Assembly (NCBI GenBank): GCA_000004985.1
Contig: GG738876.1
DNA length: 64,000 bases
Strand: one strand, 5' to 3'
From: Naegleria gruberi
Lineage: Eukaryota
Made by a program: the position numbers and the translations under genes. Under the pieces are notes generated by a model that was not told the origin of the DNA, made no database searches, and saw nothing but the letters and a program-made list of their open reading frames with translations. This document shows positions 15,898 through 58,280 of this stretch, piece after piece (within the stretch, counting starts at the first letter, position 1; each line of letters opens with the position of its first letter).

Positions 15898-17615
15898 ATG
15901 TATCTTATTGAACTGTTGCTTGCAATTCTACTTGTCATTGCAACCATTATCATTGTGAGAGTTTATACGAGTTATAGAAAGGTTTCACACATTCCTGGAG
16001 GTTGGCAAATAACCAGTTTTCTATTTAGAATTCCAATTGTGGCAGAGTATGTCTTTATTAATAATCCGAGAAGAATTCTTCAATTGGTAAAGGAGAAGAG
16101 TGAGAAGGAGAATGGAAATGTTGTGAGAGTTAGTTTGATGGGTAGAAATATTGTCTATATCAATGATAAAGAGTTACTGAAAGAGGTTATTGTGACGAAA
16201 GGTCATAATTTCCCAAAACATAAGGCGCCTTATGAAGGATTTACTATATTTGGTGAGAATATATTGACCATTGAGGATTCTGCTGATGAAAATTTAAGAA
16301 ATCATCACAAGGTTTGTTCCCCTGCATTCACAAATCAAAATTTGGAATATCTTGTAGATTATTCTTCTAAAAGTATCGGAAAGTTGTTCGATAGATGGCA
16401 GAAACAAACTAAAGAATACACAATCAATGGAAAAACTGTACAAGGTTACTCACCTGCAGATATCAAGAATGATTTCAGTGATTTGACTCTTGATATTTTA
16501 GGACAAGTTGGTTTTGGTTTGGATTTTGACATTTTCTCTGCTAATGAACATTCTGAAGGCATTGAATTTAGAAAAAGTCTTGAATTACTTTTCACAACTG
16601 GTGTATTTGTTAAATTATATGTTGGAATGAATCCTCTCCTTAAATGGGCTCATCCACTAGCTCAACAATATTTTGGAATTGACCATGCATTGAAGTATGT
16701 GAGTTCCAAATTGGATGACATGATTTCTGTGAGAAAGAATGAAATTGAACATCAATTTAGTTTATCTGGTGAAGGTTCTGATAGAAGAGACTTGTTGAGT
16801 TGCTTGATTGAAGCAAATTATCTTCAAAAAGGTTTATTGACTGATGATGAAGTCAAGTCTGATGCGTTTATTTTTTCGCTAGCCGGCCACGATACTACTT
16901 CAACAACCTTCCAATGGGTAAGTTTTAATTTTTTTATTGTTATTTAAATTTTTTTTATTTTTTTAAAATTTTCAAATTCCATAAATAGTGTTGTTATGAA
17001 TTAGGAAAGAGATTGGATGTTCAACAAAAAGTTCGTGAAGAAGTCAATTCCATCTTGAAAGGAAGAAAGCCAGTCTTTGATGACTTTACCGAAATGAATT
17101 ATTTGAATTGTGTTGTTATGGAAACTTTAAGATTGCATCCACCAGTTCCAGCTGGTTTCCGTGTGGCCAAGAAATCAACCAACATTGGAAAATATCAAAT
17201 TCCAAAGGGTACCATTATTGCACTCGATTTGGCTAATACCAATTGGAATGAAAAACATTGGGAGAAACCTTTCGAATTTATTCCAGAAAGATTTGCTATG
17301 AATTTTGATGAAAGACAAAAAACTGAAAGTGATTTTACGTGGGTTCCATTCTCTATGGGTAACAGAAAGTGCATTGTAAGTTTGAAAATCTATATTTCAT
17401 TTATTTAGGCATTTAAATAATTCCAAATTTGTAAATTTTAGGGATTTAAATTTTCCAGATATGAATTATTCACCCTATTGAGCAATATGATGCAAAAATA
17501 TGAAATTATCACATTGAATGATGAATCTAATCCAAAAGATAGAGTATATGAAGTCCCTGGTCCAACCATCAATCCAGGAAATTTAAGATTGCTATTTAAG
17601 GAAATTTCCAATTAA
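15898..17615 (+). CDS. Cytochrome P450 monooxygenase (3 exons: 15898..16917, 16989..17375, 17442..17615; ~526 aa)
   Basis: N-terminal membrane anchor (MYLIELLLAILLVIATIIIV), I-helix AGHDTTSTTFQW, ExxR/PERF region (ETLRLHPPVP), and heme loop FSMGNRKCI|G split by intron 2. Introns are 71 nt (gtaagt...aaatag) and 66 nt (gtaagt...ttttag), both phase 0. Exon 3 ends ...LRLLFKEISN*. Confidence 0.85.
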
Positions 17616-24232: not shown

Positions 24233-27200
24233 TTAACAAATGATGGATAGGCATGCCATTATCAAAAGCGCAACCAAAACCAGAGAAACATGTGCAATAG
24301 GAGAGGCATGTGAAAGAGATTGAGACGGATTGATAATATTACTAACTTCTAGTTCAATATTTTCACCAGTAACAACCAGAGCATAACTCTGTGGTCTGAA
24401 AATGTAACTTGCCGACACCTTAATGATAATTCCAACACTGCTTTCATCAATCCAAACTTGTTCAACATTATTTCTAAAATCACGTTCTCCTGCTGTTGAT
24501 CCAACACCACTATTCTTTTCCTTGAGTTGTGAATTTCCGTAATATTGTTGAGTTCCAACTTGTACCAATAAATCCAAATCATTGACAAGTTGGCTAGAGG
24601 AAGAAGGACTTCCTGGATAATCTGCCCACACCAATGTTATTTTCACATTTGAAATCTTATTCTTCTCATTCAAAGCTTTCAAATAATAATAGTGATAGGT
24701 TTTCACACTATCAATAACTGGATCTCCAAATTCGGTGGTAACATTTGTGCTTCCAACTTGAGTATTGAATCGATTATCTGTATTATGAATGTGTTTCACT
24801 CTTCCAATTTGAAGAATTCTCTTACTTTCCTCAAATGCAAGCACTTTATCCAATTGAACTCTTCCAAATCCTTGATAGAAGCATCCAATTTCAGTACGTG
24901 GCAAAATTTTGAAAGAGGTCAGATAGTCATTACTCACTGTCTGTAAATCAGTTCCAGAATTAATGACTGAGGCCTTCAATAAGGCAGATGATGGAATAAA
25001 ACCATCCTGTGCTTGTTTCTTCTTACTTGGATAATAGCCCTCTCTGTAATATTGACGAACGATAGCAACAAGACCAGCTGTTGTTGGTGTGGCCATACTG
25101 TTGTTTTGTACAATTGATTGATAAATTAATTGATAGATTAAATACTATTTTCAAAATATTAAACTAACCTTGTTCCACGAGTTGCTCTGATGGCATCAAC
25201 TGGCGATTTGTAAGTATCTGAACAAGTCAATCGAGGTGAATATTTTGTACTGCTGTATGATCTGGCACTCAAAACGTCAGCTCCAGGAGCATTCACGTCA
25301 GGTTTAATTCTCAAATCTGGTGTTGGTCCTCTACTGGAAAATGTTGCCATCGAATCAATTTGTAGACCTTTTGTATTGAGTGAATCAAAGACACACTTTC
25401 CACAAAACCTGTCTCCACTAGCACCAGCAGCACATCCACAATTTCCAGTTGCATAACTAATATTCGATCTGGCACAGAAACCATCCGTTGAACAAACATT
25501 GAAATCAGTCATGAAGAATGCACACTCCTCCACGGCAACACTACAATTGAGAGATGCCAAAATTTCCTTCCTAATATCATCCAAAGCAGGTGGTTGTTTG
25601 AACATTAATTCGTGTTCTCTTCTGGCCTGGAATGAATTATGACTTGCTCCAACTGCCAATCCATTCTTTGTTTGAGCTTGAGCTCCAATTGACTTGAATC
25701 CATCATTTCCTGAATTTCCAGCTGAGAAGAGAACTATCAAATCCTTGTGTTGCCAAATATATCGATCAGTGTACATGGCATAGAGATTGTAAGAAGTTCC
25801 TCCTCCCCAACTATTGGTCTGAATTCTACTATTCATCATTTCATATGTGAATATGTGAACACTCTTGTGTGGCTCCAATGGTTGATAGGTGGCACCTCTC
25901 CTCTGTGGACAAGTTGAGTTGGCATAACTCTTACAGGCACATCCTGGAATGGAATCACATGTGCATCCACCTGGTTTGGCACATCCCAATTGAACGAGTG
26001 CCAACTTGGCCTCTGAGGCAATTCCACGATAATCGTACAGTTCTGGAATTGAGGAATATCCAGCAACAGTTGCAGCAACATGAGTTCCATGATCATAATC
26101 ATTCGAATTGAGATCGATTAAACCAAAATGCATTTTGACTTTTCGATGATTGGACGAAAGATTAATATTTGACTCATTCAGAGTTCTAATTTGCTCAACC
26201 TTCTCATTAGGATCATAAAAGAAACAAGATAATGTGTCAAACGTTCCATCCACAACAGTAATCACTTCATCTTTCCCAGTTAATCCATTAAAATATGATT
26301 TCCCCTGTTCTGGAACTGCATCCGATCCATAATTAATAATTCTCTTTGAATACTTGTTCATTTCATAATTGGCATGCATTGGTTCAATCCAAATAACTGA
26401 AGATAACTTTCCAATTTCATAAGCAATAGCAAGAGCATGGTCTTTCCTCACAGTTATGGCAATACTCTCAGAATGTTCGACTAATTTGGAAATTATCAAT
26501 TGACCATTGTTAATGGATTGAGTGAAATGTCTCAATTGTTCACTCACTGTTTCAATTTCTTGATTCATTTCAAGGAGAATGGTCATGGAAATGAATTGTA
26601 TTGGAGTTTCTTGTTGGGATTTTGTAGATTCTGAACTTTCTTGGGATTGAGTTTCTAATAATTCTTGATCTTGAAATTCGCCAATGTGAAACTTGAAAAT
26701 TGGATCAATTTGACCTATCCATTCGATATTGTCATTAGAAAGTAAATCTTTAACATTCTCCAAGCTAGCTCTCATGGAAAATGTGTTCATTGCCAAATGC
26801 GAAACCTTTCCGCTTTCCAATAAACTTTCGTCCATTGAATTTCTCAGCAGAATTGGTTTCTCAACGTTTCTACATTTAAAAAGAATGTGGAAATTATAAT
26901 CACCCAAACTGGAATGATCCACATTCCTTTCCTTGTTATTGTGAATGAACGGATTCGAATAGTGTAAATAATTTCTTCTAATTTCGTTGATATTTCTAAT
27001 ATTTTGCAAAGATGATAGAGTAAACATATTCTTTTGGTAAATATCATCCAAAGCCTTCATTCCCAATCTTTTCAAATTTTCTTCTCCTCTCAAAATCCCT
27101 CCATTCATACGAAAGGTTTCGTCTAATGATTTTGTCAAGTAATTACTTTCGTCTAACTGCAACTGTAAACCATCAACATTCGATGCTGCAAGTGTTACAC

Positions 27201-27267
27201 TCCACAACATGCACTGGAAGAATAGAATACACAAGAGACCAAATAATTCGAAAGGTTTGGAGGACAT
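24233..27267 (-). CDS. Subtilisin-like serine protease (peptidase S8) with signal peptide, long propeptide and C-terminal TM anchor (2 exons: 25169..27267, 24233..25097; ~987 aa)
   Basis: Signal peptide MSSKPFELFGLLCILFFQCML. Catalytic motifs: Asp in VVDGTFDT, His HGTHVAATVAG, Asn LFSAGNSGNDG, and Ser GT|SMATPTTAGLVA. The Ser codon is split by a 71-nt phase-2 intron 25098..25168 (gttagt...aacag). C-terminal hydrophobic anchor SLVLVALLIMACLSIIC. Confidence 0.85.
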
Positions 27268-31796: not shown

Positions 31797-33416
31797 ATGT
31801 CCTCATCAATTGCCCTGAATAATTCTAATACCTCTACCACTACTACTACCAATCCTCCTTTTGATATTTCCAAGCTTGTTACTCAAGCAGTTTTGTTACC
31901 TTCCTCCTCATCGTCATCCTTCCATAACAACCTCCCTAAATCATCATCATCATCCCCCTGTGCATTGGATAATAATACCAATGAACAACAACAACAACAA
32001 CCATTGAGTGATGATTCGATCATTCTCGAAGAAACAACCACCACCGACGTTGATAATACAGTAATTGCCACCATAACGACAAAAGCTGCTCTAGGCAGTG
32101 GTGCTTTGATGGTTGAAGGAGTTGCCCTTGTCGACGATGAAGATGACGAAGAATCAACACCTGCCACACCAGAAGCTAATGGAGAATCCCAGCAAGAATC
32201 TTCTCAACAAGAACACCAAGAATCTGGCCTTTTAAAAGCCAAGAAGAAGAAGAATTCATTGACTAATAGTGCAGCAGCTCTTGAAGATTTGGAAACTATT
32301 TCAACCATGACAACTGTCAAGACTACAAGTACAACAAAGAAGGTTGTCAAGAGACATTCATCGCTCTCTGCTCAAACTATGAACCAAGCAATGGATCAAT
32401 CAATGAATCAATCAGCTCAACAAGAAGAACAATACACCACTCTTAAATCATCCACTCCAACAAAGAAGCAGAACAAGGAAAAGAAAGCAAGTCCTATCAA
32501 TAATCTCTTCAAATCCATCAAGGGTGTCATTAAATCTTTAAAGAAGAATAAGAATAACAAGAGCACTTCTAGCTCAACGACTTCACATAATAATAGCAAG
32601 CAAGATGGTGATTTAATCCATCAATTCTGTANNNNNNNNNNNNNNNNNNNNNNNNNNNNNNNNNNNNNNNNNNNNNNNNNNAACAAGGTGAAGCACTCAC
32701 TGGTTTCTCAACAAGACGAAGAAGTCAAGACAAATAAGAAGAGAGCTCACAAGCAAGCTCCACAAACTGCTCTTCTCCCACCTCAACGACCACACGTTCA
32801 AGGCAAGAAGACTCTTGTACTTGACCTTGATGAAACATTGGTTCACTCTGTCTTTGTACATACTGACCAAGCTGACTTTGTGATTCCAATTGAAATGGAT
32901 GGTAGAACATACTCTTGTTATGTTCTCAAGAGACCTGGAGTTGACGAATACTTGAGAGAACTCGGTCAATACTATGAAATTATCATCTTTACTGCTTCTC
33001 TCTCCCTGTATGCCAACCCACTTCTTGACATTCTTGATAAGCATGGTGTCATTGAAGGTAGATTATTCCGTGAACATTGTACAAAGGTTGGTGATACTTA
33101 CATTAAGGATCTCTCAAGATTGGGTCGTGATTTAGATCAAACCATTATTGTAGATAATTCTCCAAGTTGCTATGCAATGCAACCACAAAATGCTTTGGCT
33201 TGTACCACATGGTACGATGATCCAAACGATAGAGAGCTGGGTCTTCTTGCTGATTGTCTCAAACGACTTGAAAGAGAAAAGGCTGTCTATGATGGTCTCA
33301 AGTCATGGAAGGAATTAATTTCATCAGGTGTTAATGTTACCTCATGGAATGGCGGATCAGCAATGACAGTATCCTCGACGTCTCACCATCATCAAGTAAT
33401 AAAGAAAAGAATGTAA
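31797..33416 (+). CDS. SCP/FCP-type (NIF domain, DxDxT) protein phosphatase with long low-complexity N-terminus; CDS interrupted by a 50-N assembly gap
   Basis: C-terminal domain KKTLVLDLDETLVHS (DxDxT catalytic motif), ...IIFTASLSLYANPLLDILD..., ...IIVDNSP... is typical of CTDSP/Dullard-like phosphatases. The N-terminal half is S/T/Q/N-rich. Ns at 32632-32681 fall inside the reading frame, so the protein is incomplete in the middle. Confidence 0.75.
   Translation: MSSSIALNNSNTSTTTTTNPPFDISKLVTQAVLLPSSSSSSFHNNLPKSSSSSPCALDNNTNEQQQQQPLSDDSIILEETTTTDVDNTVIATITTKAALGSGALMVEGVALVDDEDDEESTPATPEANGESQQESSQQEHQESGLLKAKKKKNSLTNSAAALEDLETISTMTTVKTTSTTKKVVKRHSSLSAQTMNQAMDQSMNQSAQQEEQYTTLKSSTPTKKQNKEKKASPINNLFKSIKGVIKSLKKNKNNKSTSSSTTSHNNSKQDGDLIHQFCXXXXXXXXXXXXXXXXXNKVKHSLVSQQDEEVKTNKKRAHKQAPQTALLPPQRPHVQGKKTLVLDLDETLVHSVFVHTDQADFVIPIEMDGRTYSCYVLKRPGVDEYLRELGQYYEIIIFTASLSLYANPLLDILDKHGVIEGRLFREHCTKVGDTYIKDLSRLGRDLDQTIIVDNSPSCYAMQPQNALACTTWYDDPNDRELGLLADCLKRLEREKAVYDGLKSWKELISSGVNVTSWNGGSAMTVSSTSHHHQVIKKRM
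32632..32681. other. Assembly gap (50 N)
   Basis: Run of n characters inside a low-complexity coding region. Confidence 1.
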
Positions 33417-36879: not shown

Positions 36880-36929
36880 NNNNNNNNNNNNNNNNNNNNN
36901 NNNNNNNNNNNNNNNNNNNNNNNNNNNNN
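36880..36929. other. Assembly gap (50 N)
   Basis: Run of n characters immediately after a perfect inverted repeat. Confidence 1.
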
Positions 36930-37001: not shown

Positions 37002-37508
37002 TTACAAGACATACATACACACGATGGTATAAATGGCCAAGCAAACAGTACTCAATAATCCCCATAACCAAACCAATGTTCTCAATGGAGGCAAATTGAA
37101 CCAGTACATGAAAAAGTAGACCATTCTAGAGAGGGTAAAGCTTGCCATCAGAATATTCCCCACAATGGCATTCCACAAGGAATATTGAGGATCGGTGATT
37201 GATGTATAACTCATTGTAGAGATGATAACGTATGGAATTGCAATCATGATGAATGGCACAACATTTTCAATGTCATTTCTGTGAATGTTGCCAGCCAATT
37301 CGGCACGAGAGGCCCATGAGGATGGTTTCTGATCTTCGAGGGAGTAATTGCTATTGTTGAGTGCTTGTTTTTGCTTTTTAGTCGACATGGCATCTATCAT
37401 TTTAGAAATACCTGTTATTTGAGCAGCAATGAATAGACGAAACATTAAGAGAAAGACATTATAGACAAATCCTTGAAGGACAGGATTGTAGAGAATGAGT
37501 GGTTGCAT
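37002..37508 (-). CDS. Microsomal glutathione S-transferase (MAPEG family, MGST1-like; ~168 aa)
   Basis: First ATG at 37506-37508 (MQPLILYNPV...); the track's longer N-terminus starts at GTG. Four TM segments and the MGST1-type motif R.HLNDLENIIPF, here HRNDIENVVPF. Confidence 0.7.
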   Translation of the reverse strand: MQPLILYNPVLQGFVYNVFLLMFRLFIAAQITGISKMIDAMSTKKQKQALNNSNYSLEDQKPSSWASRAELAGNIHRNDIENVVPFIMIAIPYVIISTMSYTSITDPQYSLWNAIVGNILMASFTLSRMVYFFMYWFNLPPLRTLVWLWGLLSTVCLAIYTIVCMYVL

Positions 37509-37776
37509 TTTGTTTTGTTGTGTGAGTTTTTCTCTTTTACAAAGAGTTGAGCTATTTGAATGAAATATTGTGTTGTTCACAACTCAATGCATCCTCCCGG
37601 ATCTTTTAGTGTACGTCCACAGGTCAACCTACTCTCACAAATAACAATGTTTCTTCTTCAAGTGTATGTGCTGATGCTAATTTCCAAGGGATCTCATTTC
37701 TATGTGTTATTAAAAACAGCAATGAAAGATTGTTAAATTTCTGAAAATTTAACATATTAAAGAAATTTAATTTACA

Positions 37777-39322: not shown

Positions 39323-41751
39323 ATGAAAAGAGAAACTTTTAAGGTTCATGCAATACAACAAGGAAGAAGGAATAATGATTCAACTCCTTCTTCTTCCTAC
39401 TCGGAAGGATTTTTAAAGATGAAGAAGAATGTAAATAATAGCTTGATGATGCTGGTTGCATTAATATCAATCATGCTGCTGTTGGGTTTCTCTCAATATG
39501 TTGAAGCATTGAATGGTGAGGGAGTTGATGTATCCAAGTGCACTTATCAGAGTTCTGTCTCATTGGGCTCTACCATGACTTTAAAGTGGAATGTTTTGAA
39601 GAATCCTAGTGATGCCTCCAATTATATTCTCGAATTTGGTTTAATTTGCACAAAGGCAGGTTATTGTTCCATTGGATTTGATCATCCGTATGGGCAGGGC
39701 ATGCAAAGTATTGATACCTTGTTTGCTTTTGTGAGTTCTGGAGTTGCCAATGTTCAGGATTGTTACTGCACCAATAAGCATTCAATTCCAACCATCGATT
39801 CGAACAATGGAGGTTCTAATGACTTTTTGGAAACTAATGGTGGAGTTGTGAATGGACAGTATCATTATAGATGGAGTAGAAAGATGAGTACTGGAGATTC
39901 ACAGGATGCAACCTTTAAGAATTCAAATGTTTATGTGAGTTGGGCCTATCATTCATCCTCTACCTCAATTTCTTCAACTCACACCGACTATGGAAGAAAT
40001 ATTGCAGTTAATTTCCTTTCCAATACACCAACTGAAACCTATGTGAAAGGAATGATTAATAATGGAGCTAGTAGTTCATCCTCTTCTTCCTCAAATTCAA
40101 CAAGTACTAGTAGCTCCACTTACACACAAGTTCCATCTCTATGCCCTTGCCATTGGTATTGCTTCACTAATCATGGCTGGATTAATTGTGACTTATTTGC
40201 CAACTGCTTTCAAATCCAACATTATTACTCACTTTTTATTTTATAGAAAGATTTCCAAGGTTATTCCATATGATTTTCCATTAGTTTCTTATGTGAATCA
40301 ATTCCTTGATTTGACAATTGGTGAAGTATTGGTGATTATTGTCTATTTGGCTATGAAGGTTGTTTGGTTTGTTTATGGATTTCTTACTCAAACTGATGAT
40401 TCTACAGCAAAGAAGGTAGCCTCTGGATTTACTCAATTAATTGTGTTTAACTATATTTTCCTGTTCATTCCAGTGACAAGATATTCAGTTTTACAAGCAT
40501 TATTTGGAATTTCATTCGAAAGATCAATCAAATTCCATAAATGGATTGGTGTCATGGTTTTCCTCTCTGCAACTGCTCATGGTATAGTGGAATTTATTGC
40601 GTACAGGGACAATATTCCATATATATTCTCGGTTGGTGATGGTTTTCCATTACTGGGAATTATTGCTTGGTTGACTCTTGGATTGCTTCTTTTATTCTCA
40701 CTTGAGCCAATCAGAAGAAAATTATATGAATTGTTTTTGGTATTCCACATTCCATTGACCTTTATCACAGTCACATTCTCAATTATTCATGGTGAAGGTT
40801 GGATTAATTTACTTCCATATATGGCATTCTCACTCTTTTTAATGGTAGTGGATTTTCTTTTGAGAGCAATAATTGGATTTGGCGTTCCAACCAAGTTGGT
40901 TCAGATTTCATATGATGAAGATGCTGAGGTTACAACTTGTGTATTCGAAAAGAGATTCTTGACCCTGTTCCACAATCCAAATCATGCTCACTTTGTCTTT
41001 GTTTACATTCCACAAGTTTCCATTTATCAACTCCATCCAATGACAATTAGTTCATGTGTTAAGTTGCATGATGGTAGTCATCAATTTACATGCCACATCA
41101 AACGAATGGAAGGAGGTTCTTGGTTAACCAAATTGGCCAACCTAGCCAAGTCAAAGAATGATTGATGAATATTTTGGCGTTAGAGTTGAAGGAGCATATG
41201 GAAATCTTTCCATTCCATTCTTCAATTCAGGACTATTCTCAAAAATAGAAGATCCAAAGCGTACCATTGTCTTTATCGTTGCTGGAATTGGAGCCACTCC
41301 TGCCAATGCTATCCTTACAGCTCTGGAAGATCCAAAATATAATGAACCAACTCCTTACAAGGTCTTTGTTAACTTTACAATGAGAAATGAAGCTCTCCTT
41401 CCTCACTTGACCAAAATTATTCAACAAAAACCCAATGTTGAAAGTTCCTTCTATATTACTGGTTCCAAATCAAAATCTCACAATGCCAATCAGATTGAAA
41501 TGCTAGAGAAGGGAAGAAGTACTGGAATAGATCATAGTAATGATAGAAGATTTATCAAGGGATCAAGACCAGTCTATGAAGAGTATCTTCATAAGGTGAA
41601 ACAATATGTTGCCCAATCTAAATCAAAGCCATACGTTTCAGTGTTTGCCTGTGGTCCAGCAGCCATGATGAATGCAGTTCATAATGCTGTAATTTCAGCT
41701 AGTGATATGGATTGTCGATTTGAACTTCATAAGGAAGAATTTGAATTTTAA
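39323..41751 (+). pseudogene. DOMON-domain ferric reductase / NADPH-oxidase-like gene, copy 1 of a tandem pair; reading frame broken by two single-nucleotide frameshifts (~40130 and ~41162)
   Basis: Three overlapping ORFs (39323..40246, 40062..41165, 41158..41751) together encode a signal peptide, a DOMON-like extracellular domain (YCSIGFDHPYGQGMQSIDTLFAF...YHYRWSRKMSTGDSQDATF), a six-TM ferric-reductase domain with heme-binding His residues (HKWIGVMVFLSATAHG; IHGEGW), the FAD motif HPMTISS and NAD(P)H motifs (FIVAGIGATPANAIL; FACGPAAMMNAV). Successive ORFs are offset by +1. Copy 2 is colinear without these shifts. These are either real pseudogene lesions or indel errors in low-complexity sequence. 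Confidence 0.55.
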
Positions 41752-42042
41752 TTTATAAACTATTTTGTTTTAAGGTAATAAAAGCATCTTGGAATTCCAA
41801 GAGGAAGTTTTTTCCTCTGTTGTTGAAAAATATGGACTTTTTTGGAACTTTTACGACAAGAATATGTTGTTAAGGATGCATCCTTCCCTTTTAATCTTCT
41901 TATTTTCCATTATTCCACATGAATCATTGTAAATTGCGCTGGTGTTTTTAAAAATTGGCGTTTTGCATGGCCTCCTCTCCTCAAAACCAAGAAGACAACT
42001 GGAAAAAATCTTTAACACAACCATTGAATAGGATTTTCACAC

Positions 42043-44474
42043 ATGTGGATATTAAGGCAGCAGCAGAATCATCCAATAAAACATTTAGAGAGTGTTAACT
42101 ACTCTCTTTCATCAAATAGAACACAAAAATGTTCGGAAAGAGGATTATTAAAATTAACTGTCATGTGTTTGATAATATTCATGATAAATATCACTCATAT
42201 ACAACATGTTGAGGCATTGAACAGTGCAGGAAATGATGTGTCCAAATGTACCTATCAAAAATCAGTAAAACTTGGCTCTACCATGACTCTCTACTGGAAT
42301 GTTTTGAAAAATCCCAATGATGCCTCCAATCCCATTCTTGAATTTGGTTTAATTTGCACAAAAGCAGGTTACTGTTCCATTGGATTTGACCATCCATTTG
42401 GAAAAGGTATGCAAAGTATTGATACCTTGTTTGCTTATACTTCCAATGGAGCTGCATATGTTCAGGATTGTTATTGCACCAATAAGAAATCCATTCCAAC
42501 CATCGACTCGAACAATGGAGGTTCTAATGACTTTTGGAAACTAATGGTGGAGTTGTGAATGGACAGTATCATTATAGGTGGAGTAGAAAGATGAGCACTG
42601 GAGATTCACAGGATGCAACCTTTAAGAATTCAAATGTTTATGTGAGTTGGGCCTATCATTCATCCTCGACTTCAATTAGGTCAACTCACACGGCCTATGA
42701 TAGAAATATTGCCATCAACTTTCTTTCTGTCTCGCCAACTGAAACCTACTCAACTGGTATGATTAATTCTGGAACTAGTAACAATAATAATGGAGGTGGT
42801 AATAATAATGGTGGCAATGATGACAATGAAGGAGACAATGATGATGACCATGACAGTGGAGATTCAAAGAAGCACTTGTATCATTTGTATGCTTTGGGAA
42901 TTGCTGTATTTTCCTTAATGGTATTAGGAATTATTACCACTATCTTACCAGCTTCTGTCAAATCTAATATCTTTACTCACTTTTTGCTGTACAGAAAGGT
43001 TTCGAAAGTTATTCCATATGATTTTCCATTAGTTTCCTATGTGAATCAATTCCTTGATCTGACTCTTGGTGAGTTGGTTATCATTTTAGTATATGCTGGA
43101 TTGAATGTTATTTGGTTTGTTTATGGATATTTGGAAAGTCAAAAGGTTTCGTCTGCATTTGCAAAGGTGATTGTATTTAACTATATTTTCCTGTTCATTC
43201 CAGTGACAAGATATTCAGTTTTACAAGCATTATTTGGAATTTCATTCGAAAGATCAATCAAATTCCATAAATGGATTGGTGTCATGGTTTTCCTCTCTGC
43301 AACTGCTCATGGTATAGTGGAATTCATCGAATTTAAAGATAACATTCCATTCATGTTTTCAGTGGAGGATGGATATCCATTGTTGGGAATTATTGCATGG
43401 CTAGCTCTTGGATTATTATTGCTATTTTCAATGGAGCCAATCAGAAGAAAATTATATGAATTGTTTTTGGTTTTCCATATTCCATTGACATTTATCACAG
43501 TCACATTCTCAATTATTCATGGTGAAGGTTGGATTAATTTACTTCCATACATGGCATTCTCTATTATTTTAATGGTAATTGACTGGACTTTAAGAGCAAT
43601 TATTGGATTTGGTCTTCATACACAACTAGTCCATATATCCTATGATGAAGAGTCTGAAGTGACCACTTGTGTATTCGAAAAGAGATTCTTGACCCTGTTC
43701 CACAATCCAAATCATGCTCATTTTGTTTTTGTTTACATTCCACAAGTTTCCATTTATCAACTCCATCCAATGACAATTAGCTCATGTGAAAAACTTGCAG
43801 ATAGTAACCATTACCGATTCACATGCCACATCAAAAGAATGGAAGGAGGTTCTTGGTCAACCAAATTGGCCAATCTTGCAAAATCCAACAAACCAATCGA
43901 TTCATATCATGGTGTTAGAGTTGAAGGAGCTTACGGAAATCTTTCCATTCCATTCTTCAATGACAGTCTCCTCTCCAGAAGTGAAGATAAAAAGAGAACC
44001 ATTGTCTTTATCGTTGCTGGAATTGGAGCCACTCCTGCCAATGCTATCCTTACAGCTCTGGAAGATCCAAAATATAATGAACCAACTCCTTACAAAGTCT
44101 ATGTGAATTTAACTTCAAGAAATGAAGCAATTCTCAAGCACTTTAGAATACTGGTCCAACACAAACCAAATGTAGATTGCACATTCTACATAACAGGAAC
44201 TAAACCATCCAAATCTATAGAAATGTTAGAAAAAGGGCAAAGTACTGGAATTGACCATAGTACAGATAGAAGGTTTATCAGAGGATCAAGACCAAATTAT
44301 GTTGATTACTTGAATGGTGTGAAAGCACAAGTCAATCAATCAAAATCGCTCCCTTACGTTTCAGTGTTTGCCTGTGGTCCTTCTTCAATGATGAATTCTG
44401 TTCATAATGCTGTGTGGTCATGTAGTGATATGGATTGTCGTTTCGAATTACATAAAGAAGAATTTGAATTTTAA
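42043..44474 (+). CDS. DOMON-domain ferric reductase / NADPH-oxidase-like protein, copy 2 (intact except for a 1-nt deletion in a T-run at ~42525 that splits it into ORFs 42043..42558 and 42534..44474)
   Basis: Same architecture as copy 1: signal peptide, DOMON-like domain, FRD TM domain HKWIGVMVFLSATAHG, HPMTISS, FIVAGIGATPANAIL and FACGPSSMMNSV. Copy 1 has gactttttggaaa (T5) where copy 2 has gacttttggaaa (T4), so a homopolymer indel (sequencing error or real) is likely. Confidence 0.6.
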
Positions 44475-44804: not shown

Positions 44805-46837
44805 ATGGGAAATGGAAAATCAAAGGAAGGAGGAAAAGGTGGTTTGTTAGCCGTGTCGAGAAATTCCCTCGATGAAGGTCCTCCTGCAAAATCCTCTTCC
44901 AGTGTAAAACCAAATCAAAGAGTTAATATCTATGTTGATGAAACGTCGGTTAAGAATAATAATAATACTACTACTACATCTAATATGAATAATAATAATA
45001 ATAACAATACTAATAATAATAATAGCCTTCATCAGAGTCAACTTTCCAATGATTCATCATCAACTAATAATAATACAACAACAACAACAGCAACTCCACC
45101 CTCCAATAATCAAAATCCAAACACAGCAACAGGAACAACAATTTCCAATACCAATACAGATAGTACCACATCATCATCACCCAACGCGTCGACTAACAAT
45201 TCTGTTCTCACTCCTTCGAATCAGCAACAACAACATCATGTAACTTTTGGCGCCAATACTGGTTCTTCTTCGTCTATTGTTTTTGGTGTTGATGTGAGTG
45301 TGGCGGTTCAGAGAAGCTGTAAATTAATTCTCAAAATGTTACTCCAGAAAAAACAACAAGAATCAGGCGCTGCTGCTGCTGATAGTTCTCCTCCTCCTCC
45401 TCAGGAAAGTATTTCGGAAGAAAAAGTATGTTAATTTAATTATTATTTCAAGTGTTCTAATAGAATTTTATTATTTTGATATTATTGTTATTGTTATCGT
45501 AATTGATTACGATGATGATGATTTTAATTATTATGAATGATGATTTTAATAGAAGAATGAATATAAACATCCATTGGCAAGTGATGAAGAAATAGAAGCC
45601 ATAGAGAAAGTATGTGCCAATCTAGAAACTTTATTCATTCCGGAAGTATTACGTCAATGTCTTAGATTTTTAAATTACTATTCATCTCTTCTTGAACAAG
45701 GTGTCTATCGTATACCTGGAGATACACAGAAAATGAAAGAATATAGAGAAGTATTTGATAAAGGTCAGTCCATTGACTTTTTGGCAGAGAATCGAGAAAT
45801 TGATAGAAAGAGAAAGGAAGCACAAGAAAATGGAGTTACTGTTGATATAGTGCATCACGGAGTAAGTATTTATTCGAAAGTATAATATTCTCATTATCAT
45901 CATTATAATCACAATGAACATCATCACAACAATAGATTAAACATGATGCTCATGATGTGGCTGGTCTCATTAAATTGTTCTTGAGAGAGCTTCCTGGAGA
46001 TTATCATTTATTTACATCACAAACAGCTCCTGAATTTTCCATTTCACATTTGAAGAATTTTGCAACAGAGGAAGAAAAAGTTGAATCAGTGAGGACAAGT
46101 TTACTTCGAGTACCAAGAGCTAATAGAGATACTTTGAAAGCTCTGTGTGAACACTTTAGACTGATAATCAAATACGAGAAATCTAACAAGATGACAACTG
46201 ACAATTTACTCAAATGGTATGTTTTAATTTTTCACATAATTTTTCAATAACATTTGATCCTATTCAAATGAAATTATCGCAACAATCTTCTTTCATCATC
46301 TGGAACAATAACAGTATATGTGGAACATCACCTTATGTATTGGCTTTCTATTTTATGGTTCAATTCTATGATATAGTTTTCAGAGAGGAGGAAAAGAAAG
46401 AACCATCTAAACCATTAACAGAAGAGGAAATGAACTCGACCAAGAATATTGAATGGTTGCTAAGAGCTCAAAATGATAACAAAAATGTACTCAGTCTGGG
46501 TAATCTTTCACACCTCACTGGAGGAAATAACAATTTATCAAATGAAGCACTTGCAGGTAAAGCCATGAGTGCTAGGGAAAGTAGAAGAAAGTCGTACTAT
46601 CAAAGACAGCAAAGAAATGACAGCACAGCATCTGAAGATACACCAACTACTGCCACTGACCAATCTGATTTTGCCTCCCCAGCAACAAATGATAATTCCA
46701 ATTCTGATTTAGATCCAATAACTTTAGCACTATTGAAAATGAAAAAGGACAAGGATACACAAAACGAAAACACAATTGCCACAGACAATGTAGACTCACA
46801 AGAACAAAATGATTCTTCGATTACAGTTGAGATGTAA
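44805..46837 (+). CDS. RhoGAP-domain protein with N-myristoylation signal (4 exons: 44805..45425, 45553..45861, 45936..46216, 46315..46837; ~577 aa)
   Basis: Start MGNGKSKEGGKGG (MGxxxS plus polybasic). Poly-N/T linker. RhoGAP motifs GVYRIPGDTQKMKEY (arginine finger), DAHDVAGLIKLFLRELP, and NKMTTDNL. Introns 1 and 2 are well supported (gtatgt...ttaatag and gtaagt...aacaatag, both phase 0). Intron 3 (46217..46314, gtatgt...aataacag, phase 2) is inferred to restore the frame, so the exon 3/4 junction is less certain. Confidence 0.65.
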
Positions 46838-47603: not shown

Positions 47604-48833
47604 ATGTCTTCCTCCGCACCACCAGTTCTTCCAAAGGGAAGTACCATGAGAGATATTTTCGATTATTGCGAAAAGAATGGATTAGATTCTGTTGCGCAAG
47701 GTATGATTGAATTGGCTCCTCCTATTAAATTGAGAGGTTTGCTTCAACATATTACTATGGATGATTCTGTCCATCAATATAGATTACGTATGGGTCAACC
47801 AATTTATAGAGAAGGCTTGTTGAACATGTTGCATAATCACTATGGAATGAAGAATTTAACAGTTGATAACATTTTGGCTGTTCAAGGTGTTACTGCTGGA
47901 TGTCTTTCTACATTGTTGTGGTTGAAGGAACAAGGTAAATCACAAATCGGATTAATGACACCATTCTATACTTATCACTTGCGTGATATTGAAAGTGTTT
48001 TTGGTAATACTAAAGAAGCTTTGGAAAAGCATGCCAGATTCATTAAATTAGGTCCTGCTCCAAACTTTGATATTGATTTTGATGATATTGAAGAAAATTA
48101 TTTAAAGAAGGGATTGTTGGACTGTTTAATGATTTGTAACCCAGGTAATCCAACTACTCGTGTCTATGAAAAGGATGAATTGGAAAGACTTGTTCGTTTG
48201 TGTGCCAAATATGATTGTTATGTCTTGTTGGATGAATGTTATTGTGACATGGTTTGGAGAAGGGATGAAAATGGAAAGACTACCATTGATTTTGTTTATT
48301 GTCCACAAGCTAACGATGAAATTTTGAATACTTTGAAGAATGTTATTGTCTGTAGAGGTTTCTCAAAGAATATGGGATGTCAATCATGGCGTTGTGGTTA
48401 TGTTATTGCTCATCAAGATGTTATTAATTCATTGATGCGTACTCATGATCCATTGTACATTTGTGTTCCATATTTCCAACATGCTTTGGGTGAATATTTG
48501 AAGGATGATTTGCCAGATTTTGCTAGACATGTTAGAGAAACAGGTCAATTGATGCTTGATAACTTGGAAGTTTTGAAGGAAGCTTTCTCAAAGAGTTTGG
48601 GTTGGAAATTATATCAACCAAGTGGTTCCATGTATGCTTTATTCCAACATGAATCTGCTTCTGATTTGGATGCTGTTGTTGAAGCTCTTAAATTGGGTGT
48701 TGGTGTCTCTCCTGCCAGCATTTTCTATCCACCAGGTGTTGATAATAGTGGAATGATTAGAATTCACTTGGGTATTTCACACGAAAAGGCCAAGAGAATT
48801 GCTAAACAATTGGTTGAACGTTCTCAAAAGTAA
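47604..48833 (+). CDS. PLP-dependent aminotransferase, class I/II fold (409 aa)
   Basis: NPGNPTT motif and PLP-lysine motif FSKNMGCQSWRCGY (SxSKxxG.xGxRxG). Length is typical. Confidence 0.8.
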   Translation: MSSSAPPVLPKGSTMRDIFDYCEKNGLDSVAQGMIELAPPIKLRGLLQHITMDDSVHQYRLRMGQPIYREGLLNMLHNHYGMKNLTVDNILAVQGVTAGCLSTLLWLKEQGKSQIGLMTPFYTYHLRDIESVFGNTKEALEKHARFIKLGPAPNFDIDFDDIEENYLKKGLLDCLMICNPGNPTTRVYEKDELERLVRLCAKYDCYVLLDECYCDMVWRRDENGKTTIDFVYCPQANDEILNTLKNVIVCRGFSKNMGCQSWRCGYVIAHQDVINSLMRTHDPLYICVPYFQHALGEYLKDDLPDFARHVRETGQLMLDNLEVLKEAFSKSLGWKLYQPSGSMYALFQHESASDLDAVVEALKLGVGVSPASIFYPPGVDNSGMIRIHLGISHEKAKRIAKQLVERSQK

Positions 48834-56485: not shown

Positions 56486-57082
56486 TTAGTCATGAATTTT
56501 ACCATTTGCAATCACAGAAAGATTGGAAACCAATCCATCCAATTGAGAATGTTGTCTTCCTCCTCCATTATAAATGATCTTTCCAATAGAAATCTTGTCA
56601 GATCTTGAATATTCCAAATTTCCTTGATATGCCTTAACAGAACCAACAACATTACCATTGACAGTAAGAATGGATCCATGGTGCTTATTATATCTCCATT
56701 CTATGTGATGTTTCTCATTTAATCTCAAAGGTTCACTGTCATTGGTCAAGGCAATCAATTTTCCGTTTATATTTCCATAAACACCAACAACTCCAGGTTT
56801 TTTATCAGAATCTTTTCCAAACAAGTAGAAGGTAAAGACCCATTTTGAACTATCTGATAAATCTCCCATGCTAATAATCATGGAACAATACTTGTTGGCG
56901 AAAGAATTGATAACCACATCAAACGAAACCAAAACTTCACCTCTAATCACGCTGTATAGAAAGGAAACTTCCTTTTTCAAAGAATCAACTTGTTGTTCAA
57001 GAGATGGTTGAAATGAATCCTGTTGAGATTGTGTAATTTGCATACTGGACTTTTTTTTTGGTGTTTGAGAGCTTTTGAACAT
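56486..57082 (-). CDS. Hypothetical beta-rich protein (~198 aa from first ATG), possibly lectin/jelly-roll-like
   Basis: The ORF 56486..57115 starts at a GTG; first ATG is at 57080-57082 (MFKSSQTPKKK...). No motif identified. Confidence 0.35.
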   Translation of the reverse strand: MFKSSQTPKKKSSMQITQSQQDSFQPSLEQQVDSLKKEVSFLYSVIRGEVLVSFDVVINSFANKYCSMIISMGDLSDSSKWVFTFYLFGKDSDKKPGVVGVYGNINGKLIALTNDSEPLRLNEKHHIEWRYNKHHGSILTVNGNVVGSVKAYQGNLEYSRSDKISIGKIIYNGGGRQHSQLDGLVSNLSVIANGKIHD

Positions 57083-57176
57083 ATTAGAGGTCGAATGAAA
57101 CGTGAAAAATACCAAACGTGATGAATCACTGATTGAAGATGTGAATGAGTGTTTAGCTAGTCATTTATTCATTGTA

Positions 57177-58280
57177 TTAGCAGCTATTATGCTTAATAGA
57201 TGATTGTTGTGTTAGACCATCCTTTGTAACTTTCCAAAACGAAAGAGTGTTGTCATATGCTCCAGCAACAAATCCTCCTCTTGGTGATTCTACAATATTC
57301 AAAATTCTATTATCTGTAATTTCATCACTGACCAACAATTCTTCACCTTCCTCTTTTGTAATGTCAAATACTCTAATAGCATTATTTTCTGCTGCATTGT
57401 TTTTTGACATTGCCGAACCAATTAGCAAGTTTGAATATACCTTAGACCATACCAATCCAAATACTCGTGAATTGAGGTGTTTAATTTTCCTTATTAATTT
57501 GCCAGTTTCGGTTTCCCAAATGCAAATCTTTCCATCACCGACTCCACCACCACTTGCTAGCTTGGGTGATTGATAATTATGAGACCAAGATAATGCCTTA
57601 ACAGTGCTGTTATGCTTTTGAAGTCTGAATTCAGGTTGTTCAACATTGACTTTCCATATTTGGATTTCGTTATCTGAACCTGAGCTAGCCAATTGTTGTC
57701 CATTTGGAGACCATTCTAAGCCGCAGATTTTTGCACAGTTACCTGCAACTGAACTAATTACTTCTCCAGAACGAATATCATGAGTCATAATATTTCCAAA
57801 ATTATCCGATCCTGATGAAATCAAGTGCTTTTGAACTGGATTCCAAGATATAACTGGCACTCTGTCCCTGTGTCCACTAATTTGTCCAATTTTAATAGTC
57901 CTCTCAATGTCCCAAAGGTGAATTTGTCCAGAATTGAAACCTATGGCCAAAATGGATCCATCCTTGTTCCAGGAAACGCTCGTAGTGATATCACTTTCTT
58001 GTTTCAATTCACAAACACTCCCCAAATTAGCATTCCACAAATTAACTGCCTTATCCTCCGTTGCTACAGCAAGTATATTTCCTCCACTCCAACAAATATT
58101 ATTCGTATAATAATCATTCACATAATCAGACTTCATCAAATTCCGATATTCAAACTTCATATGAAAACTTTTTTCCTTCATTTTCAATTGTAATAGTTTG
58201 AAACTTTCATTGTGAGAAGAAGGAAATGAATTGAAATCGGTGAGAGGGATGCAAGCAATGTTGGGGTTTGATTGATTCAT
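57177..58280 (-). CDS. Cdc20/Cdh1 (Fizzy)-family WD40 protein, short form (367 aa) lacking an N-terminal C-box region and IR tail
   Basis: WD40 blades closely track the Cdc20 pattern (VSWNKDGSILAIGFNSGQIHLWDIE..., ISSGSDNFGNIMTHDIRSGEV..., LEWSPNGQQLASSGSDNEIQIWKV...). ATG at 58278-58280, only 87 bp downstream of the stop of the upstream HECT gene on the same strand. Confidence 0.65.
   Translation of the reverse strand: MNQSNPNIACIPLTDFNSFPSSHNESFKLLQLKMKEKSFHMKFEYRNLMKSDYVNDYYTNNICWSGGNILAVATEDKAVNLWNANLGSVCELKQESDITTSVSWNKDGSILAIGFNSGQIHLWDIERTIKIGQISGHRDRVPVISWNPVQKHLISSGSDNFGNIMTHDIRSGEVISSVAGNCAKICGLEWSPNGQQLASSGSDNEIQIWKVNVEQPEFRLQKHNSTVKALSWSHNYQSPKLASGGGVGDGKICIWETETGKLIRKIKHLNSRVFGLVWSKVYSNLLIGSAMSKNNAAENNAIRVFDITKEEGEELLVSDEITDNRILNIVESPRGGFVAGAYDNTLSFWKVTKDGLTQQSSIKHNSC

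What the first reader, a model, noticed from the sequence alone, without database searches (positions are those of the whole stretch)
39323..44474. Tandem DOMON-ferric-reductase paralogs show mosaic 100%-identical tracts (gene conversion) and each carries single-nucleotide frameshifts
The two copies are roughly 80% identical overall. They contain blocks of perfect identity: 40446-40593 = 43187-43334 (~148 bp), ~41270-41367 = ~44003-44100 (~98 bp), and further near-identical blocks around 40700-40820 / 43435-43560 and 40940-41060 / 43675-43795. This is the signature of ongoing gene conversion between tandem duplicates. Copy 1 needs two +1 shifts to stay in frame (~40130 in a Ser-codon repeat, and ~41162). 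Copy 2 is interrupted only by T5 to T4 at ~42525. Either both are decaying or, at least for the homopolymer, the assembly has indel errors.
Basis: seen in the sequence. Interest (0 to 1): 0.5.

Follow-up and report, generated by a model that had tools for sequence, protein, structure and literature searches.

The report
Gene-converting, frame-broken tandem ferric reductase genes
Two neighbouring copies of a Naegleria gruberi iron-reductase gene keep copying short stretches of sequence onto each other, and both are broken by small frameshifts that the public annotation hides, which is a tidy example of an ordinary kind of gene-family evolution.

Summary
The window is Naegleria gruberi, whose only public assembly is a Sanger draft. 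Two tandem DOMON/ferric-reductase/FAD/NAD genes (39323-41751 and 42043-44474, + strand) are 80% identical over the alignable CDS. That identity is mosaic. Five tracts of 98-161 bp are 96-100% identical (silent divergence dS about 0.09), and they sit in a saturated background (dS about 1.04). Permutation tests on silent codons reject chance. A third paralog differs at 14% of residues inside the tracts, so constraint alone cannot explain them. Interlocus gene conversion is the best explanation.

All three frame breaks are in the sequence:
- Copy 1, somewhere in 40056-40128, in a Ser-rich linker.
- Copy 1, a 2-nt deletion at 41158/41159.
- Copy 2, a T5-to-T4 change at 42532-42535, inside a converted tract.

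Homology runs straight across two of the breaks, so they are not introns. The public models hide them with fake introns of 31 nt and 199 nt, and with an N-terminal truncation. Nothing else suggests decay: omega is about 0.2 and the cofactor motifs are intact. No other frame break appears in about 42 kb of coding sequence in the window. Copy 1 is therefore probably a genuine young null allele. The single lesion in copy 2 could be real or a consensus error. This is ordinary biology and a useful annotation correction.

The parts
39323..41751 (+). Copy 1 of the DOMON / ferric-reductase / FAD / NAD gene. It is read in three frames: frame 2 up to the linker, frame 3 up to 41158, and frame 1 from 41159 to the stop.
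   Evidence: ORFs. Pfam DOMON, Ferric_reduct, FAD_binding_8 and NAD_binding_6. tblastn frames. The public model P0002 equals join(39323..40073, 40105..41049, 41249..41751).
42043..44474 (+). Copy 2 of the same gene. Frame 1 runs to 42535 and frame 3 runs from 42536 to the stop.
   Evidence: The public model P0001 is only 42591..44474, truncated at the N-terminus.
40056..40128 (+). Copy-1 frame break 1 (net +1). It lies somewhere in the Ser-codon-rich, non-conserved linker between DOMON and the first TM helix, and cannot be placed more precisely.
   Evidence: Both frames are open here. Homology in frame 2 ends near 40072 and resumes in frame 3 at about 40128. The public model bridges it with a 31-nt GTTCAT..AAG 'intron' at 40074-40104.
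41154..41163 (+). Copy-1 frame break 2: AAGAA|TGATT, a 2-nt deletion relative to copy 2 and P0003. This could be a contraction of an A run (inference); the missing bases are not known.
   Evidence: Alignment. P0003 aligns continuously at 478/479 across 41149-41156. The segment has the same length in copy 2 and P0003.
42532..42535 (+). Copy-2 frame break: T4 where copy 1 has T5 (39824-39828).
   Evidence: P0003 residues 84/85 abut at 42534.
39800..39960 (+). Conversion tract A, equal to 42508-42667. It covers the DOMON core, has 158 of 161 positions identical, and contains the copy-2 indel.
40446..40594 (+). Conversion tract B, equal to 43176-43324. All 149 positions are identical. It covers TM helices with the first His pair, FHKW...AHG.
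40698..40819 (+). Conversion tract C, equal to 43428-43549. 117 of 122 positions are identical. It covers the TM helix with the second His pair, FHIP...IHG.
40935..41050 (+). Conversion tract D, equal to 43665-43780. 114 of 116 positions are identical. It covers the FAD-binding segment ending in HPMTISS.
41263..41360 (+). Conversion tract E, equal to 43998-44095. All 98 positions are identical. It covers the NAD(P)H-binding GIGATP segment.
41752..42042 (.). 291-bp spacer between the two copies. It shows no homology to the region upstream of copy 1.
   Evidence: Identity falls to 32-44% (background) outside about 39500-41751. Only two copies exist in the window.

Best explanation
These are two old tandem paralogs of a Naegleria gruberi ferric reductase. 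The protein is a DOMON-containing eukaryotic ferric reductase: an extracellular DOMON domain, then a bis-heme transmembrane ferric-reductase domain, then cytosolic FAD- and NAD(P)H-binding domains.

The background silent divergence between the copies is about 1. They repeatedly exchange short stretches by interlocus (non-allelic) gene conversion, that is, homologous-recombination repair that uses the neighbouring copy 2.7 kb away as a template. Conversion succeeds and persists in the cofactor-binding cores. Those are the segments that are still similar enough to recombine, and homogenisation there is harmless. The result is five tracts of about 100-160 bp with almost no divergence.

In the assembled haplotype both copies carry young frame-disrupting indels at slippage-prone sites: a Ser-codon microsatellite, a short A-rich stretch and a T run. 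Copy 1, with two lesions, is most likely a genuine recent null allele or young pseudogene. The single T5-to-T4 lesion in copy 2 postdates the last conversion across that site. It is either a very recent or heterozygous mutation, or a consensus error.

What is shown: the domain architecture, the tracts and their significance, the frame breaks, their non-intron nature at two of three sites, and purifying selection over most of the genes' history. What is inferred: the recombination mechanism, the slippage origin of the indels, and whether the lesions are real.
For: Organism and paralogs: one search gives 100% identity to N. gruberi predicted proteins. The assembly is Sanger-based (PMC9928731 Table 1).

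Architecture: Pfam. The DOMON-containing ferric-reductase clade, with seven N. gruberi paralogs, was described in PMC3591440.

Mosaic identity.

Silent-site tests:
- Longest identical-codon run of 47, P = 5e-5.
- Runs z = -5.0.
- pS 0.089 in tracts against 0.564 outside.

The tracts are not under absolute constraint. P0003 differs from the identical copy 1 / copy 2 pair at 30 of 216 tract columns. Outside the tracts the three site patterns (copy 1 = copy 2 only, copy 1 = P0003 only, copy 2 = P0003 only) occur 66, 38 and 31 times. The longest run of 'copy 1 = copy 2, P0003 different' sites is 16, P = 0.007.

Frame breaks.

Not introns: homology is continuous across two of the breaks. The 199-nt 'intron' in the public model encodes 66 conserved residues, including RVEGAYG. 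It also evolves with pN far below pS (windows starting at copy-1 positions 41064-41203).

Lesions are young:
- Omega is 0.18-0.20.
- Of 89 family-invariant columns, copy 1 deviates at 3 (one of them the start-Met column, where copy 1 is only gapped) and copy 2 at 2. Two of these deviations are shared by both copies.
- Lineage-specific amino-acid changes are balanced, 31 against 38.

Lesions are concentrated here. Every other same-strand frame change in the window is compatible with a GT-AG intron of 43-98 nt or with separate genes. For two of them Pfam matches span the splice junction: a 92-nt GTAAGT intron in a P450 gene and a 71-nt GTTAGT intron in a subtilase gene. That leaves 0 breaks in about 42 kb of other coding sequence against 3 in 4.9 kb.
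Against: No read-level, transcript or second-strain data could be reached, so whether each indel is real is untested.

The window has scaffold gaps (50 N at 36880-36929, 2.4 kb upstream of copy 1), so this is draft sequence.

DNA of the third paralog was not available, so the outgroup test is at protein level only.

The tracts were delimited after the fact, although the run tests do not depend on those limits. GC3 is no higher in the tracts (0.301 against 0.298), so there is no signature of GC-biased conversion.

The copy-1 linker break cannot be placed exactly. A real 31-nt intron there is unlikely but not formally excluded.
Confidence: 0.8

Rival explanations
1. All three frameshifts are consensus or assembly errors in a draft Sanger assembly. 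Both genes are intact and functional in the organism, and gene conversion between them is still real.
For: Both copies look fully constrained: omega is about 0.2, the motifs are intact, and long ORFs follow each break. All three sites are in short repeats or homopolymers. The assembly is a draft with gaps nearby. Paralogous identical tracts could attract misplaced reads.
Against: Sanger data do not carry systematic homopolymer errors (technology per PMC9928731). No other frame break occurs in about 42 kb of coding sequence in the window. Under a uniform error rate, three errors all landing in these 4.9 kb has a probability of about 1e-3 (inference from those counts). One lesion is a 2-nt deletion, which is an unusual base-calling error. 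The identical tracts are much shorter than Sanger reads.
Confidence: 0.12
2. The identical blocks reflect unusually strong local constraint on both protein and synonymous sites (codon usage, mRNA structure, or mutational cold spots) rather than sequence exchange.
For: All five blocks coincide with the most conserved, cofactor-binding parts of the protein.
Against: The third paralog, P0003, has 31 amino-acid differences in the same 216 codons, so the protein is free to vary there. Other segments with conserved protein show saturated silent divergence. The windows starting at copy-1 positions 40569 and 40614 have pS 0.72 with pN 0.11-0.13, and the window starting at 40236 has pS 0.45 with pN 0.04. 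GC3 is the same inside and outside the blocks.
Confidence: 0.05
3. The copies are a recent duplication, and it is the divergent segments that were overwritten, by conversion from other, more distant paralogs.
For: N. gruberi has about seven DOMON-containing ferric-reductase paralogs (PMC3591440). A mosaic alone does not say which parts were replaced.
Against: There are no significant runs of sites where copy 1 or copy 2 alone matches P0003. The longest runs are 4 and 4, with P = 0.28 and 0.13. The remaining paralogs are only about 35% identical, which is too divergent to act as donors. Homology outside the CDS has decayed to background right at the stop codons, as expected for an old duplication.
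Confidence: 0.03
4. The frame changes are bypassed biologically, either by the introns in the public gene model or by programmed ribosomal frameshifting, so full-length protein is made.
For: The public model P0002 uses GT..AG boundaries at 40074-40104 and 41050-41248. The linker break lies in non-conserved sequence, where a tiny intron cannot be excluded by homology.
Against: The 199-nt 'intron' removes 66 conserved residues, including the invariant RVEGAYG motif, and it evolves like coding sequence. The verified or likely introns in the window are 43-98 nt long with GTAAGT, GTATGT or GTTAGT donors, not GTTCAT. No intron can restore copy 2 without deleting conserved DOMON residues. No X XXY YYZ slippery heptamer is present at GAC TTT TGG (read directly from the sequence).
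Confidence: 0.04

Closest known systems
DOMON-containing eukaryotic ferric reductases (Zhang et al. 2013, PLoS One, PMC3591440), a clade with seven N. gruberi paralogs plus oomycete homologues
   Same: Both copies have the same architecture: N-terminal DOMON, a ferric-reductase transmembrane domain with two His pairs, and FAD- and NAD-binding domains. The public models of both copies are N. gruberi predicted proteins.
   Different: In the assembly both genes are frame-disrupted, and the public models are patched or truncated. No biochemical function has been tested for any member of this clade. Ferric-reductase activity in Naegleria is known only at whole-cell level (PMC7326272).
Interlocus (non-allelic) gene conversion between tandem duplicates, as in primate globin and opsin genes and many other tandem gene pairs (from general knowledge)
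   Same: Short tracts of tens to a few hundred bp with near-zero divergence sit in an old, diverged background. The tracts concentrate where residual similarity is highest. The two copies are close together and in direct orientation.
   Different: No population or sister-species data exist to show concerted evolution directly. There is no GC3 enrichment in the tracts. Both partners carry frame lesions.
Gene / pseudogene pairs that exchange sequence, such as GBA1/GBAP1, CYP21A2/CYP21A1P and chicken Ig pseudo-V donors (general knowledge; GBA1 example in PMC12075325, listed)
   Same: A frame-disrupted copy stays recombinationally active with its neighbour. Lesions could be transferred or repaired by conversion.
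   Different: Here neither copy is demonstrably the intact 'gene'. The lesions sit at different, complementary positions. No transfer of a lesion is seen.

Membership tests
DOMON-containing eukaryotic ferric reductase | N-terminal DOMON domain (PF03351) | tested here: met
   copy 1 E = 3.4e-18. Copy 2 E = 8.3e-10 for the part upstream of the frameshift, and the rest of the domain continues in the next frame.
DOMON-containing eukaryotic ferric reductase | Ferric_reduct transmembrane domain (PF01794) with two His pairs for two hemes | tested here: met
   E = 6e-21 and 3e-22. FHKW...AHG and FHIP...IHG are present in both copies and conserved across the family alignment.
DOMON-containing eukaryotic ferric reductase | C-terminal FAD-binding (HP[FM]T) and NAD(P)H-binding (GxGxxP, CGP) dehydrogenase module | tested here: met
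   NAD_binding_6 is above its cut-off. FAD_binding_8 is just below its cut-off (19.4 and 21.7 bits against 22). HPMT, GIGATP and ACGP are seen.
DOMON-containing eukaryotic ferric reductase | A single uninterrupted ORF encoding all the domains | tested here: not met
   Copy 1 is split into three frames and copy 2 into two. In the assembled sequence they are gene relics or null alleles of this family, not intact members.
DOMON-containing eukaryotic ferric reductase | Ferric (or other metal) reductase activity | not testable with these tools
   No biochemical data exist for this clade.
Interlocus gene conversion between paralogs | Discrete tracts whose silent divergence is far below the background between the paralogs | tested here: met
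   pS is 0.089 in the tracts and 0.564 outside. There are perfect runs of 149 bp and 98 bp.
Interlocus gene conversion between paralogs | Clustering of identical silent sites beyond chance (a run or permutation test) | tested here: met
   longest run P = 5e-5, runs z = -5.0, and the top-5 run sum of 141 exceeds every one of 20,000 permutations.
Interlocus gene conversion between paralogs | A third sequence shows that the tracts are free to vary, or shows phylogenetic incongruence between the tracts and the flanks | tested here: met
   Tested at protein level only. P0003 differs at 31 of 216 tract columns. The run of 'copy 1 = copy 2, P0003 different' sites has P = 0.007.
Interlocus gene conversion between paralogs | Concerted evolution shown by comparing orthologous pairs in sister strains or species | not testable with these tools
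   The databases searched hold no other N. gruberi-complex sequence.
Pseudogene (non-functional relic) | Frame-disrupting lesion in the coding sequence | tested here: met
   This describes the assembly only.
Pseudogene (non-functional relic) | Relaxed constraint (omega approaching 1, loss of invariant residues, accumulated stop codons) | tested here: not met
   Omega is 0.18-0.20. Invariant columns are kept. There are no in-frame stops apart from those caused by the frameshifts.
Pseudogene (non-functional relic) | Lesions verified in reads, and no full-length transcript or protein | not testable with these tools
   No reads or transcripts are accessible.
Spliceosomal introns at the frame changes (as in the public model) | The excised sequence is non-coding: a break in homology, a canonical donor, and neutral evolution | tested here: not met
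   Homology is continuous at 41158 and 42534. The 199-nt 'intron' encodes 66 conserved residues and has pN far below pS. Its donor is GTTCAT, against GTAAGT, GTATGT or GTTAGT in the verified or likely introns of the window. The 31-nt linker 'intron' remains inconclusive.

The most novel reading that the evidence does not exclude
The two adjacent copies carry complementary lesions. Copy 2 is broken only in the DOMON domain, and copy 1 is broken only in the linker and at the FAD/NAD junction. They are still exchanging tracts of 100-160 bp, so a single conversion event could regenerate an intact gene. One example is copy 1 donating 39800-39960 to copy 2. The pair could then act as a reversible on/off reservoir for an iron-uptake enzyme, or the whole N. 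gruberi-specific trio (including P0003, whose model is also defective) could be a family caught in the act of being lost after axenic cultivation.
Probability: 0.05. Interest if true: 0.55.

Novelty: new member of a known kind. Interest (0 to 1): 0.27.

Why it matters
The main practical value is as an annotation and data-quality correction. The two public N. gruberi 'predicted proteins' for these genes are artefacts. One has two invented introns that delete 66 conserved residues. The other lacks its signal peptide and half of the DOMON domain. Both have been counted as intact paralogs in surveys of the ferric-reductase / NADPH-oxidase superfamily.

Biologically, the locus is a clean and statistically well-supported example of short-tract interlocus gene conversion in a heterolobosean, a lineage where recombination is inferred mostly indirectly. 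It also shows that the number of functional DOMON-containing ferric reductases in N. gruberi may be lower than reported. It does not reveal a new mechanism.

Tried and rejected
1. DNA of the third paralog (P0003), or independent assemblies of these genes. The look-up of encoding contigs has no record for P0001 or P0003. A metagenome scan with the copy-2 protein found no relatives. As a result the outgroup test could only be done at protein level, and no read or transcript check was possible.

2. Introns as the explanation for the frame changes. I enumerated all frame-compatible GT..AG pairs at each junction. For two of the three sites this is rejected, because homology is continuous and the excised sequence would be conserved coding sequence.

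3. Programmed frameshifting or transcriptional slippage. No slippery heptamer is present, and the T4/T5 and short A runs are too short. Rejected from direct reading of the sequence.

4. GC-biased conversion signature. GC3 is the same inside and outside the tracts, so this is uninformative.

5. Conversion from P0003 into either copy. No significant runs were found.

6. Further copies in the window. None were found.

7. The N. gruberi genome paper and review, sought for assembly depth and heterozygosity figures. Neither is held in the library. The sequencing technology was taken from PMC9928731 instead.

Full report
**Origin of the sequence.** The window is AT-rich (about 34% GC) and eukaryotic. 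The long ORF of copy 2 is 100% identical to a Naegleria gruberi 'predicted protein', P0001. Copy 1 corresponds to P0002, on the same 396,977-bp scaffold. A third close paralog, P0003 (72% amino-acid identity to both copies), sits on another scaffold. The next relatives are Willaertia magna at 41-44% and other Naegleria proteins at 32-40%. The only public N. gruberi assembly (NEG-M) is Sanger-based (PMC9928731 Table 1). The window contains two 50-N scaffold gaps, and the nearer one is 2.4 kb upstream of copy 1.

**What the genes are.** Pfam finds DOMON, then Ferric_reduct, then FAD_binding_8 (marginal), then NAD_binding_6 in both copies. This is the DOMON-containing eukaryotic ferric-reductase architecture already described by Zhang et al. 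2013, who counted seven N. gruberi paralogs (PMC3591440). A family alignment shows that both copies keep the two His pairs of the heme-binding helices, the HPMT and RVEGAYG FAD motifs, GIGATP, ACGP and the C-terminal HKEEFEF. Of 89 columns that are invariant in at least 8 other homologues, copy 1 deviates at 3 (one being the start-Met column, where it is only gapped) and copy 2 at 2. Two of these deviations are shared by both copies.

**The mosaic identity is real.** A global alignment gives 80.4% identity over 39500-41751 against 42208-44474. Homology disappears (32-48%, background) upstream of about 39500/42208 and immediately after both stop codons. Within the CDS there are five near-identical tracts:

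| Tract | Copy 1 | Copy 2 | Identical positions |
|---|---|---|---|
| A | 39800-39960 | 42508-42667 | 158/161 |
| B | 40446-40594 | 43176-43324 | 149/149 |
| C | 40698-40819 | 43428-43549 | 117/122 |
| D | 40935-41050 | 43665-43780 | 114/116 |
| E | 41263-41360 | 43998-44095 | 98/98 |

Outside the tracts, identity is 73%. Tract A was missed.

**The mosaic is more than chance or constraint.** I repaired the frames, built a codon alignment and ran Nei-Gojobori estimates. pS is 0.089 (dS 0.09) in the tracts and 0.564 (dS 1.04) outside. I then restricted the analysis to the 555 codons that encode the same degenerate amino acid in both copies. The longest run of identical codons is 47 (permutation P = 5e-5), the runs test gives z = -5.0, and the five longest runs sum to 141 against a permutation maximum of 117.

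Protein conservation alone does not produce this. Windows with low to moderate pN elsewhere have pS of 0.45-0.72. With P0003 as a third sequence, the 216 tract columns contain 30 sites where copy 1 = copy 2 but P0003 differs, none where only one copy matches P0003, and one where all three differ. So these segments are free to vary by about 14% at the protein level, yet the two neighbours are essentially identical at the DNA level. Outside the tracts the three two-way patterns occur 66, 38 and 31 times. The longest run of 'copy 1 = copy 2, P0003 different' sites (16) has P = 0.007. Runs in which one copy alone matches P0003 are not significant, which argues against P0003 as a donor. GC3 does not differ between tracts and background.

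Short-tract interlocus gene conversion between direct repeats 2.7 kb apart is therefore the best explanation. The tracts coincide with the cofactor-binding cores. That is expected if conversion needs residual similarity to start and is harmless where both copies must stay the same.

**The frame breaks.** ORF listing, the alignment and tblastn with P0003 and the Willaertia protein agree on three breaks.
- Copy 1 runs in frame 2 to the Ser-rich linker, in frame 3 from at most 40128 to 41158, and in frame 1 from 41159.
- Copy 2 runs in frame 1 to 42535 and in frame 3 afterwards.
- The copy-2 break is T4 (42532-42535) where copy 1 has T5 (39824-39828).
- The second copy-1 break is a 2-nt gap (AAGAA|TGATT) relative to copy 2. 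P0003 has the same length as copy 2 there, so it is a 2-nt deletion rather than a single-base event.
- The first copy-1 break lies somewhere in 40056-40128, in unalignable low-complexity sequence.

**The breaks are not introns.** Homologues align without any gap across 41158 and 42534. I reconstructed the public copy-1 model exactly as join(39323..40073, 40105..41049, 41249..41751). Its 199-nt 'intron' deletes 66 conserved residues, including RVEGAYG. That stretch is about 80% identical to copy-2 coding sequence and has pN far below pS. Its 31-nt 'intron' in the linker has a GTTCAT donor. The public copy-2 model simply starts at 42591, which drops the signal peptide and half of the DOMON domain.

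By contrast, the other same-strand frame changes in the window are compatible with GT-AG introns of 43-98 nt or with separate genes. For two of them Pfam matches span the splice junction: a 92-nt GTAAGT intron in a P450 gene and a 71-nt GTTAGT intron in a subtilase gene. No slippery heptamer or long homopolymer that could support recoding is present at any of the three sites (read directly from the sequence).

**Real lesions or errors?** This cannot be settled here, because no reads, transcripts or second assembly were reachable. Indirect evidence points both ways.
- For very young lesions or errors: omega is 0.18-0.20 in every domain, the invariant residues are intact, amino-acid changes specific to copy 1 and to copy 2 are balanced at 31 and 38, and ORFs of 197-646 codons stay open after each break in a 34%-GC genome.
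- Against errors: the data are Sanger, and no other frame break is seen in about 42 kb of coding sequence in the window, against three in 4.9 kb. Under a uniform error rate the chance that all three land here is about 1e-3 (my inference from the ORF lengths). One lesion is also a 2-nt deletion.

My estimate is that copy 1, with two lesions, is a genuine null allele or young pseudogene with probability about 0.8-0.85. The copy-2 lesion is real with probability about 0.5-0.6. Because N. gruberi NEG-M is reported to be heterozygous (cited in PMC9928731), each lesion may be present on only one haplotype.

The copy-2 indel lies inside tract A, which otherwise differs at only 2 of 160 positions. It must therefore postdate the last conversion across that site.

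**Comparison with what is known.** The protein family and its architecture are already known. Gene conversion between tandem duplicates, including pairs where one partner is a pseudogene, is a classic phenomenon. Three things are new here:
- This pair has been identified as a conversion mosaic.
- The public models of both genes, and possibly of P0003, which lacks its N-terminus and first TM helix, mask disruptions.
- The lesions in the two copies are complementary, so a single conversion could in principle restore an intact gene. This last point is speculation.

**Verdict.** The gene-conversion interpretation is supported. The choice between pseudogene and assembly error is unresolved, and there is no sign of long-term decay. 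It is an ordinary but clean case, of modest interest.

Noticed in passing
window 39323-41751 and 42591-44474: The public N. gruberi protein models for these genes are artefacts. P0002 equals join(39323..40073, 40105..41049, 41249..41751), with invented introns of 31 nt and 199 nt that both start GTTCAT. P0001 starts at an internal Met and lacks the signal peptide and half of the DOMON domain.
   Followed up: yes
P0003 (third paralog, another N. gruberi scaffold; no window coordinates): Its 665-aa model also lacks the N-terminus and the whole linker / first TM helix segment that is present in copies 1 and 2 and in all other homologues. The third member of this N. gruberi-specific trio may therefore also be frame-disrupted or mis-modelled. 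Its DNA could not be fetched.
   Followed up: partly
window 32632-32681 and 36880-36929: There are two runs of exactly 50 N (scaffold gaps). The second lies between a 179-aa ORF and a MAPEG-family gene, 2.4 kb upstream of copy 1.
   Followed up: no
window 39323-39500 and 42043-42208: The first ~60 codons (the putative signal-peptide regions) and the upstream DNA of the two copies are unrelated. Homology also stops exactly at both stop codons. Only the mature coding region has stayed alignable.
   Followed up: partly
window 15898-17408 (+), 24233-27267 (-): A cytochrome P450 gene has a 92-nt GTAAGT..AG intron at 16918-17009, and a subtilase gene has a 71-nt GTTAGT..CAG intron at 25098-25168. 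In both, Pfam matches span the splice junction. The P450 match stops at profile position 412 of 462, so a further downstream exon is likely.
   Followed up: partly
window 44805-45434 (+): A 209-aa ORF rich in Asn, Thr, Ser and Gln homopolymer runs lies directly downstream of copy 2. It has no Pfam match.
   Followed up: no
window 56486-58280 (-), 45936-46837 (+), 47604-48833 (+), 37002-37580 (-): The neighbouring genes are a CDC20/Fizzy WD40 protein, a RhoGAP-domain protein, a class I/II aminotransferase and a MAPEG-family protein. None has an obvious functional link to iron reduction.
   Followed up: no
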